Positions 29,290 to 31,721 of a stretch of 64,000 bases of DNA are shown here, piece by piece. The notes beneath the pieces were generated by a model. That model saw nothing but the letters and a program-made list of their open reading frames with translations. It had not been told where the DNA came from and did not search any database. How positions within the stretch are numbered: the first letter of the stretch is position 1; each line of letters opens with the position of its first letter. The translations under genes and the position numbers were made by a program. Origin of the DNA: the human T2T-CHM13v2.0 reference genome, Homo sapiens; assembly GCF_009914755.1 (NCBI RefSeq), contig NC_060938.1. One strand, 5' to 3'.

Positions 29290-29495
29290 TCACATTTCAG
29301 CTCTGCCACTTACCAGCTGTGTGACCTGTAAGTTACTCAGTTGCATAGTACCTGTTTCCTCATCTGAACAAAGATGTTGATGATAACGAAGCCTATCTCA
29401 TAGGCTTAATTGTAAGGGCTAAATTCTTTAGCATAAGTAAAGAACTTAGGAGAGTGTCCAGATATAACCAGAACTGTGCAAATACTATTCATTAT
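29290..29495 (+). mobile_element. MIR
   Basis: cagctctgccacttaccagctgtgtgacct...tgtttcctcatctg. Confidence 0.8.
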
Positions 29496-29505
29496 TGTGA
29501 CTCTT

Positions 29506-31325
29506 TCTTAAAATTATTTTTATTTTTATTTTATTTTAAGTTCTCGAATACATGTGCAGAATGTGGAGGTTTGTTACATATGTATACATGTGCCATGGTG
29601 GTTTGTATACATGTGCCATGGTGGTTTGGAGCACCCATCAACCCGTTATCTAGGTTTTAAGCCCTCCCTGCATTAGGTATTTGTCCTAATGCTCTCCCTC
29701 CTCTTGACCCCCACCCTACAACAGGCCCCAGTGTGTGATGTTCCGCTCTCTGTGTCCATGTGTTCTCATTGTTCAACTCCCACTTGTAAGTGAGAACATG
29801 GGGTGTTTGATTTTATGTTCCTGTGTTAGTTTGCTGAGAATGATGGCTTCCAGCTCCATCCATGTCCCTGCAAAGGACATGAACTCATTCTTTTTTATGG
29901 CTGCATAGTATTCCATGGTGTATATGTGCCACATTTTCTTTATCCAATCTATCATTGATGGGCGTTTGGGTTGGTTCCAAGTCTTTGCTATTTAAATAGT
30001 GCTTCAATAAACATATGTGTGCATGTGTCTTTGTAGTAGAATGATTTATAATCCTTTGGATATATACCCAGTAATGGGATTGCTGGGTCAGATGGTATTT
30101 CTGGTTCTAGATCCTTGAGGAATCGCCACACTGTCCTCCACAATGGTTGAGCTAATTTACACCCTGACCAACAGTGTAAAAGTGTTCCTATTTCTTCATA
30201 GCCTCGCCAGCATCTGTTGTTTCCTGACTTTTTAATGATTGCCATTCTAACTGGCATGAGATGGTATCTCATTGTGGTTTTGATTTGCATTTCTCTAATG
30301 ACCAGTGATGATGAGTTTGTTTTCATATGTTTGTTGGCCACATAAATGTCTTCTTTTGAGAAGTGTCTGTTCATATTCTTTGCCCACTTTTTGACGGGGT
30401 TATTTGTTTTCTTCTTGTAAATTTGTTTAAGTTCCTTATAGATTCTGGATATTAGCCCTTTGTCAGATGGATAGATTGCAAAAATTTTCTCCCATTCTGT
30501 AGGTTGCCTGTTCACTCTGATGATAGTTTCTTTTGTTGTGCAGAAGCTCTTTAGTTTAATTAGATCCCATTTGTCAGTTTTGGCTTTTGTTGCAATTGCT
30601 TTCAGTGTTTTAGTCAGGAAGTCCTTTCCCATACTTATGTCCTGAATGATATTGCCTAGGTTTTATTCTAGGGTTTTTATGGTCTTAGGTTTTACATTTA
30701 AGTCTTTAATCCATCTTGAGTTAATTTTTGTGTAAGGTTAAGGAAGGTGTCCAGTTTCTGTTTTCTGCATATGGCTAGCCAGTTTTCCCAGAATCATTTA
30801 TTAAATAGTGGAATCCTTTCCCCATTGCTTGTTTTTGCCAGGTTTGTTGAAAATCATATAGTTGTAGATGTGTGGTGTTATTTCTGAGGTCTCTGTTCTG
30901 TTCCATTTGTCTATATATCTGTTTTGGTACCAGTACCATGCTGTTTTGTTTACTGTAGCCTTGTAGTATAATTTGAAGTCAGGTAGTGTGATGCCTCCAA
31001 CTTTGTTGCTTTTGCTTAGGATTGTCTTGGCTATACAGGCTCTTTTTTGGTTCCATATGAAGTTTAAAGTAGTTTTTTCTAATTCTGTGAAGAAAGTCAA
31101 TGGTAGTTTGATGAGAATAGCATTGAGTCTGTAAACTGCTTTGGGCAGCATGGCCATTTTCAGGATACTGATTCTTCCTATCCATGAGCACAAAATATTT
31201 TTCCATTTGTTTGTGTCCTCTCTTATTTCCTTGAGCAGCGGTTTGTAGTTCTCCTTGAAGAGATCCTTCACATCCCTTGTAAGTTGTATTCCTAGGTATT
31301 TTATTCTCTTTGTAGCAATTGTGAA
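29506..31325 (-). mobile_element. L1PA (PA7/PA8-like), 5'-truncated ~1.8 kb: ORF2 C-terminal part and 3'UTR
   Basis: ORFs 30801-31343, 29988-30632 and 29773-29955 are L1 ORF2p pieces; TSD tattgtgactctt at 29493-29505 and 31361-31373. Confidence 0.97.
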
Positions 31326-31328
31326 GCA

Positions 31329-31358
31329 GTCTCTGTGGCACAACTGGTTAGTGTGTTC
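31329..31358 (+). pseudogene. tRNA-Asn(GTT) 5'-half retrocopy fragment (nt 1-30), fused to the L1PA 5' end
   Basis: gtctctgtggcacaactggttagtgtgttc vs tRNA-Asn GTCTCTGTGGCGCAATCGGTTAGCGCGTTC: 25/30 identical, 4 of 5 mismatches are CpG transitions; starts exactly at tRNA nt 1. Confidence 0.8.
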
Positions 31359-31373
31359 CCTATTGTGACTCTT

Positions 31374-31465
31374 AGCATTGTATCCCCAGTGTCCAGCAGA
31401 GGCCTACCACTGAGTAGGTACTCAATACATATTTCTGAATGAATGAATGAATGAATGAATGATTT
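31374..31465 (+). mobile_element. L2 3' end with (ATGA)n tail
   Basis: tgtatccccagtgtccagca...gtaggtactcaatac...tgaatgaatgaat. Confidence 0.75.
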
Positions 31466-31721
31466 ATTTGACTAGAAATTTGTAAGAGTTTACCAAAGTT
31501 TACTTGAGAACAGTGGCTTTTAATTTCTTTTTGACAATAATCTGCAGTAAATGAATGCATTTTATTATTATTTTCCCTAGAGCTGACATATTTTTAAAAA
31601 TATTATTTATCTTTTTTCTTTTTTTAACAAATATTTTAAATTAAGACCTAGTATACACATAGACACAGAGACACTTCATGAAACAATACTCACCATTATT
31701 ACATGTGATGCAGTCTTCTAC

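What the first reader, a model, noticed from the sequence alone, without database searches (positions are those of the whole stretch)
29493..31373. Inverted tRNA-Asn 5'-half / L1PA chimera inside a single TSD, possibly primed on the anticodon loop
Seen: the minus-strand L1PA ends at ~31325. It is followed by gca and 30 nt matching tRNA-Asn(GTT) nt 1-30 (31329-31358, + strand, so antisense to the L1), then the second copy of the 13-bp TSD tattgtgactctt. The tRNA piece therefore lies within the insertion. Known: L1 template switching makes U6/snRNA-L1 chimeras, normally in the same orientation, and twin priming makes inverted 5' segments from the L1 RNA itself. Inference: this looks like twin priming in trans, with the second target-DNA primer copying a different RNA (a tRNA). 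The copy stops just before the anticodon loop (C)UGUU, which resembles the adjacent target bases (c)tatt, so the primer may have annealed to the single-stranded loop. The extra gca could be pre-tRNA leader. An angiogenin-type tRNA half is an alternative template.
Basis: partly seen in the sequence, partly recalled or inferred. Interest (0 to 1): 0.8.

Follow-up and report, generated by a model that had tools for sequence, protein, structure and literature searches.

The report
Antisense tRNA-Asn fragment capping L1 insertion
A 30-base copy of the front part of asparagine tRNA sits backwards at the truncated end of an old L1 retrotransposon, inside the same target-site duplication, which makes it one more example of a rare kind of tRNA/L1 chimera first catalogued in print in 2025-2026.

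Summary
A 1,820-nt 5'-truncated L1 lies on the minus strand (29506-31325). It is followed by gca and then 30 nt on the plus strand that match tRNA-Asn(GTT) nt 1-30 at 25 of 30 positions. Four of the five differences are CpG decay. All of this lies between two exact copies of tattgtgactctt.

The interpretation as a single event, "twin priming in trans", is reasonable but not new. Law & Burns (bioRxiv 2025; Cell Genomics 2026) list 21 tRNA/L1 chimeras, mostly antisense 5' halves, and propose the same mechanism. This locus is not in their readable tables, which contain no tRNA-Asn entry. I found a second unlisted Asn case on contig C18.

- gca is not the leader of any of 29 tRNA-Asn loci examined.
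- The copy stops inside the anticodon stem, not at the loop.

The repeat may be 18 nt rather than 13 (16 of 18 match). That would give a 3-nt primer/tRNA microhomology (TTC).

One unexplained extra is a 7-nt L1/target microhomology (ATTGTGA) that is kept on both sides of the tRNA piece.

Verdict: a new member of a known kind, of modest interest. No outgroup genomes were available to check the empty site.

The parts
29488..29505 (.). Left copy of the target-site duplication. 29493-29505 (tattgtgactctt) is the exact 13-mer. 29488-29492 (ttcat) may extend it to 18 nt.
29506..29535 (-). Complement of the A-rich 3' tail of the L1 (T/A-rich on the plus strand), directly after the TSD. First-strand nick site on the plus strand is ...CTCTT/AGCA.
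   Evidence: homology to another L1 3' end begins just after it
29506..31325 (-). 5'-truncated L1 (1,820 nt: ORF2 3' part plus 3' UTR), primate-type, about 8-9% from its best-matching copies.
31318..31324 (.). ATTGTGA at the L1 truncation point. It is identical to TSD bases 31362-31368 and is the only 7-mer shared between the TSD and the whole L1.
   Evidence: chance about 9e-4
31326..31328 (.). gca filler between the L1 end and tRNA nt 1. It is neither L1 (other copies read TGG/TGA here) nor a tRNA-Asn leader (0 of 29 loci).
31329..31358 (+). tRNA-Asn(GTT) nt 1-30 (acceptor 5' strand, D arm, first 3 nt of the anticodon stem), antisense to the L1. All four CpGs are decayed.
31359..31360 (.). 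cc, either 2-nt filler or the two mismatched positions of an 18-nt TSD copy.
31356..31373 (.). Right copy of the TSD. 31361-31373 is the exact 13-mer. 31356-31358 (ttc) is shared with tRNA nt 28-30 and with the left flank.

Best explanation
One L1 retrotransposition event produced everything between the two TSD copies.

1. The L1 endonuclease nicked the plus strand at ...CTCTT/AGCA.
2. That end primed first-strand cDNA on the L1 RNA tail. Synthesis stopped at L1 position 31325.
3. The opposite (minus-strand) target end, freed by the second nick 13 or 18 nt away, was extended by reverse transcription of a tRNA-Asn 5' fragment, from about nt 27-30 back to nt 1. It probably started from a 3-nt pairing (primer ...GAA with tRNA UUC 28-30).
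4. This short antisense cDNA was then joined, with 3 untemplated or unexplained bases (gca), to the end of the L1 cDNA, and the gaps were filled.

This works like twin priming, with a tRNA fragment instead of the L1 RNA as the second template.

Shown: the anatomy, the tRNA identity, the single TSD, the orientation and the run-off at tRNA nt 1.

Inferred: the order of steps, the enzyme (L1 ORF2p), and that the template was a fragment rather than a whole tRNA.

The insertion is old. All CpGs in the tRNA piece are decayed, and the L1 is 91-92% identical to its best-matching copies.
For: - Exact 13-nt TSD enclosing L1 plus tRNA piece.
- The L1 ends at 31325 in comparison with 16 of 16 other copies.
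- tRNA-Asn identity at 25 of 30 positions, with 4 of 5 differences at CpGs; chance 3e-11.
- The piece starts exactly at tRNA nt 1 on the L1 side and is antisense, as expected for a cDNA primed from the far target end that ran off the tRNA 5' end.
- The same architecture was published for 21 loci. By my count of their table, 16 of 21 are antisense, and almost all start at tRNA nt 1-3. That orientation bias has binomial p = 0.013, or 0.005 with the two Asn loci added.
- In their table the TSD overlaps the tRNA annotation by 1-5 nt in 5 of 6 antisense cases that have a TSD. I checked one case in sequence: L128 has a 4-nt overlap (gaga) at tRNA-Gly nt 25-28.
- Here TTC (31356-58) is shared by tRNA nt 28-30 and the left flank. 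The rough likelihood ratio is 3-8 in favour of an 18-nt TSD with microhomology.
- A second Asn example, L050, has the same layout.
Against: - No outgroup genome could be examined, so co-arrival of the L1 and the tRNA piece rests on the TSD logic alone.
- gca and cc have no demonstrated template.
- The nick site TCTT/AG is only a degenerate match to the TT/AAAA-type motif quoted.
- Simple twin priming does not predict that a 7-nt L1/target microhomology (ATTGTGA) should survive in two copies around the tRNA piece.
- The 18-nt TSD reading needs two adjacent substitutions.
- The enzyme and the state of the tRNA (fragment or whole) cannot be read from the DNA.
Confidence: 0.76

Rival explanations
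1. Orientation-blind capture. A free tRNA-Asn cDNA or tRNA-templated patch, made by ORF2p elsewhere or by a repair polymerase with reverse-transcriptase activity such as Pol theta (recalled, not tested), was inserted as filler DNA by end joining while the L1 5' end was being attached.
For: - There are fillers on both sides of the tRNA piece: gca, and possibly cc.
- The 7-nt microhomology ATTGTGA is duplicated around the insert. This resembles the anneal-extend-dissociate cycles of microhomology-mediated end joining (recalled knowledge).
Against: - The published set plus the two Asn loci is biased to antisense, 18 of 23, p = 0.005. Capture without orientation preference does not predict this.
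- The piece begins exactly at tRNA nt 1 next to the L1 and may share TTC with the target primer, as expected for priming from the target end.
Confidence: 0.1
2. One reading: the second target primer annealed to the single-stranded anticodon loop (UGUU, paired with the complement of tatt) of an intact tRNA or pre-tRNA, and gca is copied pre-tRNA leader.
For: - The window's c-tatt resembles loop C-UGUU at 4 of 5 positions.
- Stand-alone tailless tRNA copies do end in the loop, with target complementarity: L048 for Asn, many Gln copies ending at nt 38, and the text of Noll et al. 2015.
Against: - Loop priming predicts ...TTCGGC before tatt. The window has ...TTCCC, one base short with G to C. Nt 31-32 are GG in 26 of 29 loci.
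- GCA is the leader in 0 of 29 tRNA-Asn loci.
- In L128 the primer overlap also lies in the anticodon-stem 5' strand, not the loop.
Confidence: 0.08
3. Two separate events. The L1 inserted first, with its 5' end joined through the ATTGTGA microhomology. Later a stand-alone tailless tRNA-Asn retropseudogene inserted exactly there, with ATTGTGA as its own 7-bp TSD.
For: - ATTGTGA directly flanks the tRNA piece plus fillers on both sides.
- Stand-alone tailless tRNA-Asn copies with TSDs exist: L047, L048, L051.
Against: - It requires a rare element to land within a few bases of the L1 junction.
- It requires both staggered nicks to coincide exactly with the two ends of the microhomology.
- It requires the base after the left copy (a, 31325) to match L1 by chance, which 16 of 16 other copies carry.
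- It requires the base before the right copy (t, 31361) to match the distant left TSD copy by chance.
- The implied nick site on the minus strand (...CACAAT/TG) is not endonuclease-like.
Confidence: 0.04
4. RNA-level chimera: ligation of a tRNA half to L1 RNA, template switching of the first-strand reverse transcriptase, or 5' transduction from a source locus.
For: U6/L1 chimeras form by RNA ligation. I saw only the title and abstract start of PMC6789731 in the search listing.
Against: - All three routes place the small RNA in the same orientation as the L1 (stated). Here it is antisense.
- The L1 is truncated to 1.8 kb, so there is no 5' transduction.
- No other genomic copy of the 30-mer exists within 3 mismatches.
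Confidence: 0.02

Closest known systems
tRNA/LINE-1 chimeric insertions of Law & Burns (bioRxiv 10.1101/2025.02.02.635956; Cell Genomics 2026, PMC13174262)
   Same: - A tRNA 5' portion abuts the 5' end of a truncated L1.
- It is antisense to the L1, inside one TSD of 9-19 bp, and starts at tRNA nt 1-3.
- Twin priming on tRNA halves is proposed as the mechanism.
   Different: - This locus and tRNA-Asn as a source are not in their readable tables.
- The piece is short (1-30). Most of theirs end at nt 35-39, and one is 1-28.
- It is not repeat-masked in the hub's NCBI mask list (masked stretch 29501-31327). That could explain why a RepeatMasker-based catalogue missed it.
- It keeps an unused 7-nt L1/target microhomology.
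Twin priming of L1 (Ostertag & Kazazian 2001; seen only as reference 69/61)
   Same: - Two reverse transcriptions start from the two ends of the staggered break.
- An inverted segment lies at the 5' side.
- The TSD is retained.
- Short homology is likely at the second primer.
   Different: The second template is a tRNA fragment, not an internal stretch of the same L1 RNA. There is therefore no L1 inversion or deletion junction.
Tailless (3'-truncated) tRNA retropseudogenes (Schmitz et al. 2004 as cited in, and Noll et al. 2015, PMC5322556)
   Same: - 5'-complete, 3'-truncated tRNA copy without an A tail.
- Truncation in or near the anticodon arm.
- Priming by short complementarity between a target end and an internal part of the RNA.
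- Asn and Gln examples were seen here.
   Different: - Those elements stand alone with their own TSD and are primed by the first, T-rich nick.
- Here the tRNA copy shares the TSD with an L1, is primed from the second nick, and lies antisense to the L1.
U6/L1 and other snRNA/L1 chimeras
   Same: A small-RNA copy fused to the 5' end of a truncated L1 inside one TSD.
   Different: [quoted passage not shown] This one is a fragment and is antisense.

Membership tests
tRNA/LINE-1 chimeric insertion (Law & Burns) | tRNA-derived segment directly 5' of an L1 (within 50 bp) | tested here: met
   3 nt separate the L1 end (31325) and tRNA nt 1 (31329).
tRNA/LINE-1 chimeric insertion (Law & Burns) | One TSD of at least 7 bp enclosing both parts | tested here: met
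   13 nt exact, or 18 nt with 2 mismatches.
tRNA/LINE-1 chimeric insertion (Law & Burns) | ORF2p endonuclease motif at the first nick | tested here: inconclusive
   The plus strand reads TCTT/AG. It is pyrimidine/purine but not the full motif. In their set 6 of 8 cases had a motif.
tRNA/LINE-1 chimeric insertion (Law & Burns) | Both parts arrive at the same node in a multi-species alignment | not testable with these tools
   No primate genomes are held.
tRNA/LINE-1 chimeric insertion (Law & Burns) | Typical form: about a half tRNA, from nt 1, antisense to the L1 | tested here: met
   Nt 1-30 on the plus strand, with the L1 on the minus strand.
Classical L1 twin priming | The inverted 5' segment is copied from the same L1 RNA | tested here: not met
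   The inverted segment is tRNA-Asn. The 30-mer has no other genomic match within 3 mismatches, so it has no L1 match.
Classical L1 twin priming | Short complementarity between the second target primer and the template | tested here: inconclusive
   TTC is shared by tRNA nt 28-30 and the left flank, if the TSD is 18 nt.
Tailless tRNA retropseudogene | Own TSD immediately flanking the tRNA copy | tested here: not met
   The TSD encloses the L1 as well. The 7-nt ATTGTGA repeat is better explained as L1/target microhomology.
Tailless tRNA retropseudogene | 5'-complete, 3'-truncated, no oligo(A) | tested here: met
   Nt 1-30, with no A run at the 3' boundary.
U6/L1-type sense chimera | Small RNA in the same orientation as the L1 | tested here: not met
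   The orientations are opposite.

The most novel reading that the evidence does not exclude
The locus may be a fossil of a two-step 5'-end resolution.

1. The L1 cDNA first paired with the opposite target overhang through ATTGTGA. This explains why cDNA synthesis stops 1 nt past that 7-mer.
2. That pairing failed to be extended, because both 3' ends carry a terminal mismatch.
3. The freed overhang was then extended on a single-stranded tRNA 5' fragment.
4. Only after that was it joined to the L1 cDNA.

If general, abundant tRNA fragments would act as patch templates that rescue stalled L1 integrations. Catalogues based on RepeatMasker annotation would then miss a sizeable share of such events: both Asn cases found here are unlisted.
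Probability: 0.2. Interest if true: 0.5.

Novelty: new member of a known kind. Interest (0 to 1): 0.3.

Why it matters
The locus adds a clean, old example, and tRNA-Asn as a new source RNA, to a class known from only 21 human loci.

- It shows that short, CpG-decayed tRNA pieces escape annotation-based catalogues.
- Its junctions bear on an open point in the published model, whether the template is a pre-cleaved tRNA fragment or an intact tRNA. Here and in one published locus I checked (L128), copying starts inside the 5' strand of the anticodon stem. That strand is single-stranded only in a fragment or an unfolded tRNA.
- The retained 7-nt microhomology is a small but concrete clue to the order of steps at the L1 5' junction.

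It has no known consequence for nearby genes. The site is intergenic between ADCK1 and NRXN3 (hub annotation).

Tried and rejected
- ARAGORN and Rfam at E up to 10 on the junction found no tRNA. Neither is informative for a 30-nt piece.
- gca as pre-tRNA leader: 0 of 29 loci. The nearest is TCA at one locus (L014).
- A source gene with the T16C D-loop variant or with TTCCC: none among the 52 hits of the CpG-tolerant pattern or the 29 loci. L026 has TTCCG, but it differs in the D arm.
- Origin from an inverted L1 segment or another repeat: the 30-mer is unique within 3 mismatches. Matches at 4-5 mismatches were tested only through the tRNA-shaped patterns.
- Survey for more antisense chimeras. 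Of the 16 tRNA-Lys(TTT) hits I fetched 4, and of the 58 tRNA-Gln(CTG) hits I fetched 38, leaving out the gene clusters on C6, C1, C11, C17 and C15. None of these 42 has an antisense L1 abutting tRNA nt 1. The L1 reference was only three primate-type copies plus the window's L1, so old L1 families and 5' regions could be missed. Most of the 42 are stand-alone tailless copies.
I have only 91-92% identity to the best of 40 scored out of 10,893 candidates.
- L050's TSD (ctttcttttttt) is low-complexity and lies in an Alu tail, so it is tentative.

Full report
**Observation.**
The sequence is as described.
- The plus strand reads ...ttcat|tattgtgactctt|tcttaaaattattttt... at 29488-29520.
- At 31310-31379 it reads ...ttgtagcaattgtgaa|gca|gtctctgtggcacaactggttagtgtgttc|cc|tattgtgactctt|agcatt....
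- The repeat finder lists the flanking repeat as 18 nt, 29488-29505 and 31356-31373. Sixteen of 18 positions are identical, with an exact 13-nt core.

**The L1.**
- 29506-31325 contains L1 ORF2-type open frames on the minus strand.
- It aligns over about 1.8 kb at 87-90% with three other L1 copies. Over its last 626 nt it is 91-92% identical to the best of the 40 copies scored, out of 10,893 candidates.
- The 24-mer that ends with ...GCAATTGTGAA at 31325 occurs 2,102 times in the genome. In 16 of 16 copies fetched the next bases are TGG or TGA, never GCA.
- The L1 therefore ends at 31325, and gca is foreign to it.
- The T/A-rich stretch directly after the left TSD is the complement of the L1 tail. 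The first-strand primer is therefore the plus-strand end ...CTCTT, and the nick site is TCTT/AG. That is a degenerate version of the motif quoted.

**The tRNA piece.**
- With the five variable positions masked and up to 1 mismatch allowed, the 30-mer matches 33 places in the genome (19 exactly) and none in the reversed control.
- Twenty-nine places other than the window were fetched. ARAGORN tRNA-Asn, one His(GTG) variant and no gene in two.
- Against the commonest gene sequence the window copy differs at 5 of 30 positions. Four are CpG to TpG or CpA, and all four CpGs of this part are gone.
- The chance of at least 25 of 30 matches at random is 3e-11.
- The undecayed 30-mer has no other genomic match within 3 mismatches, so no L1 or other repeat explains it.
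- The copy covers the acceptor 5' strand, the D arm and three of the five bases of the anticodon-stem 5' strand.
- The next two bases are cc, where 26 of 29 loci have GG.

**One event or two.**
- The tRNA piece lies between the L1 end and the right TSD copy, so it belongs to the insertion.
- The only serious two-event alternative uses ATTGTGA. This 7-mer is both the last L1 bases but one (31318-24) and bases 2-8 of the 13-nt TSD. In that alternative it would be the TSD of a later stand-alone tRNA insertion.
- ATTGTGA is the only 7-mer shared by the TSD and the whole 1,820-nt L1. The chance that such a match sits at the truncation point is about 9e-4. It is therefore a real L1/target microhomology.
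- A second insertion would have to be nicked exactly at both ends of that microhomology.
- The base after the left copy (a, as in 16 of 16 L1 copies) would also have to fit by chance. So would the base before the right copy (t, as in the distant left TSD copy).
- I put this rival at about 4%.

**Mechanism.**
- On the minus strand, the right junction reads 5'-...AAGAGTCACAATA-GG-GAAC...GAGAC-TGC-TTCACAAT...(L1 sense). This is the second-strand target end, followed by a cDNA of tRNA-Asn running from about nt 30 to nt 1, three extra bases, and then the L1.
- That is the product expected if the second target end primed reverse transcription of a tRNA, ran off its 5' end, and was then joined to the L1 cDNA. 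This is twin priming with a foreign template.
- Routes at the RNA level (ligation, first-strand template switching, 5' transduction) give the sense orientation and are excluded.

**Where priming began.**
It predicts TTCGGC before tatt, but TTCCC is found.
- If the TSD is 18 nt (TTCATTATTGTGACTCTT), the primer ended in ...GAA and paired with U28 U29 C30. The cc is then two substitutions in one TSD copy.
- With 8-14% expected difference per site between the two copies, this reading is 3-8 times more likely than a chance TTC in the left flank. That is modest support, and an empty site would settle it.
- In the published table, the TSD overlaps the tRNA annotation by 3, 3, 1, 5 and 4 nt in five of the six antisense cases that have a TSD. 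The sixth has a 2-nt gap. The TSD columns of that sheet are shifted by one row from the chr5:86372886 row onward.
- I checked the 4-nt case in sequence (L128). The TSD ends in gaga, which is also the antisense of tRNA-Gly nt 25-28 as annotated. That again lies in the anticodon-stem 5' strand.
- Priming inside that strand suggests a template whose stem was open, that is, a 5' fragment. This is an inference.
- It is recalled, not tested, that 5' tRNA fragments of about 28-35 nt are abundant and that position 37 of tRNA-Asn carries a bulky modification.

**The unused microhomology.**
Ordinary microhomology-mediated attachment of the L1 5' end would have collapsed ATTGTGA to one copy. Here both copies survive, and the L1 cDNA ends 1 nt beyond it. 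My reading is low-confidence inference:
1. The cDNA end and the target overhang paired there first.
2. Both 3' ends were mismatched, so the pairing was not extended.
3. The overhang was then extended on the tRNA fragment before final joining.

A repair polymerase rather than ORF2p could have done this. I cannot tell which from the DNA.

**What is known.**
- Law & Burns describe 21 tRNA/LINE-1 chimeras. I saw the bioRxiv outline and passages, Cell Genomics passages, the supplement list, two supplement searches and part 2 of mmc3.
- They report that the tRNA parts are typically half-length and predominantly antisense. They report TSDs of 9-19 bp in 8 of 8 cases checked and an endonuclease motif in 6 of 8.
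- They propose tRNA halves as templates and twin priming as the mechanism.
- By my count their tRNA sheet has 16 antisense and 5 sense entries.
- The sheet has no tRNA-Asn entry. "Asn" and the digits of my estimated hg38 position occur nowhere in the four readable spreadsheets. Three PDF supplements could not be read.
- A full-text search for twin priming + tRNA + chimeric returned 10 papers, 8 of them listed. By title and abstract start, no other listed paper describes this class.
- Noll et al. 2015 (passages and section 16) describe stand-alone tailless tRNA retropseudogenes. These are truncated in single-stranded regions, and their target sites are complementary to the last 2-18 nt of the annealed RNA. 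The authors argue for internal priming.

**Small survey.**
- A CpG-tolerant tRNA-Asn pattern gave 52 hits. Five hits lay outside contig C1, apart from the window itself and four exact-match places already identified as tRNA-Asn genes. I fetched those five.
- Three are stand-alone tailless copies with TSDs (L047, L048, L051). One is a degenerate full-length copy (L049).
- The fifth, L050 (C18, minus strand), is a second antisense chimera. About 190 nt of L1 3' end lie antisense, colinear with the window's L1 through ...GATGTTCC.
  - This abuts tRNA-Asn up to nt 37. The first five tRNA bases are ambiguous with L1.
  - Then come tt and a tentative T-rich TSD inside an Alu tail.
  - It is also absent from the published table.
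- For tRNA-Gln I fetched 38 of 58 hits, and for tRNA-Lys 4 of 16 hits, leaving out the gene clusters. None of these 42 has an antisense L1 at tRNA nt 1. The caveat is a small L1 reference.
- Most Gln copies end at nt 38 or 42/43 with A-rich TSD starts, as Noll et al. describe.
- L1-capped tRNA pieces are thus a small minority of tRNA retrocopies, which agrees with their rarity in print.

**Verdict.**
- The general interpretation is supported but already published.
- The loop-priming and leader details are not supported.
- This is a new member of a known kind and a new source tRNA, with an informative junction.
- The key missing test is the orthologous empty site.

Noticed in passing
L050 = G000:C18:25440339-25440968 (minus strand); tRNA piece at C18:25440639-25440668: Second antisense tRNA-Asn(about 1-37)/L1 chimera. 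It is not in the published table. It appears to have inserted into the tail of an Alu, and its TSD (ctttcttttttt) is tentative.
   Followed up: partly
window 29581-29626: Perfect 23-nt tandem duplication (TGTATACATGTGCCATGGTGGTT x2) inside the L1 3' region. It is absent from the L1 of L050.
   Followed up: no
window 31314-31317, 31325-31328, 31374-31377: agca occurs three times within 65 nt: in the L1 just before the microhomology, as a+gca at the L1/tRNA junction, and directly after the right TSD. The L1's last 30 nt also align to the reconstructed empty site better than most shuffles (score 10; 46 of 2000 shuffles reach it). This may reflect templated filler or may be chance.
   Followed up: partly
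window 31374-31470: The right flank ends in a (TGAA)n microsatellite (31436-31463) and gives a weak Rfam hit to ZNRD1-AS1_1 (E = 0.39). From memory it looks like the 3' end of an old MIR-type SINE, so the L1 probably inserted into such an element. This was not tested.
   Followed up: no
L047 (C10:118766736), L048 (C21:27332972), L051 (C19:60732088): Stand-alone tailless tRNA-Asn retropseudogenes with clear TSDs, ending at about nt 46, 39 and 56. They carry 5, 3 and 1 extra bases before tRNA nt 1. In L047 the extra agctt resembles the gctt leader of several Asn genes.
   Followed up: partly
L083-L120 (dispersed tRNA-Gln copies): Many tailless tRNA-Gln copies carry the same extra bases (…tga / …gtga) before nt 1. 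This suggests unprocessed transcripts of one source gene as templates.
   Followed up: no
L023 (C1:16543018) and L030 (C1:146560637): tRNA-Asn-like genes whose anticodon reads GTG (called His) and ATT respectively.
   Followed up: no
PMC13174262, mmc3.xlsx, sheet 7: The TSD columns appear shifted down by one row from the chr5:86372886 row onward. The TSD coordinates there belong to the following locus.
   Followed up: partly
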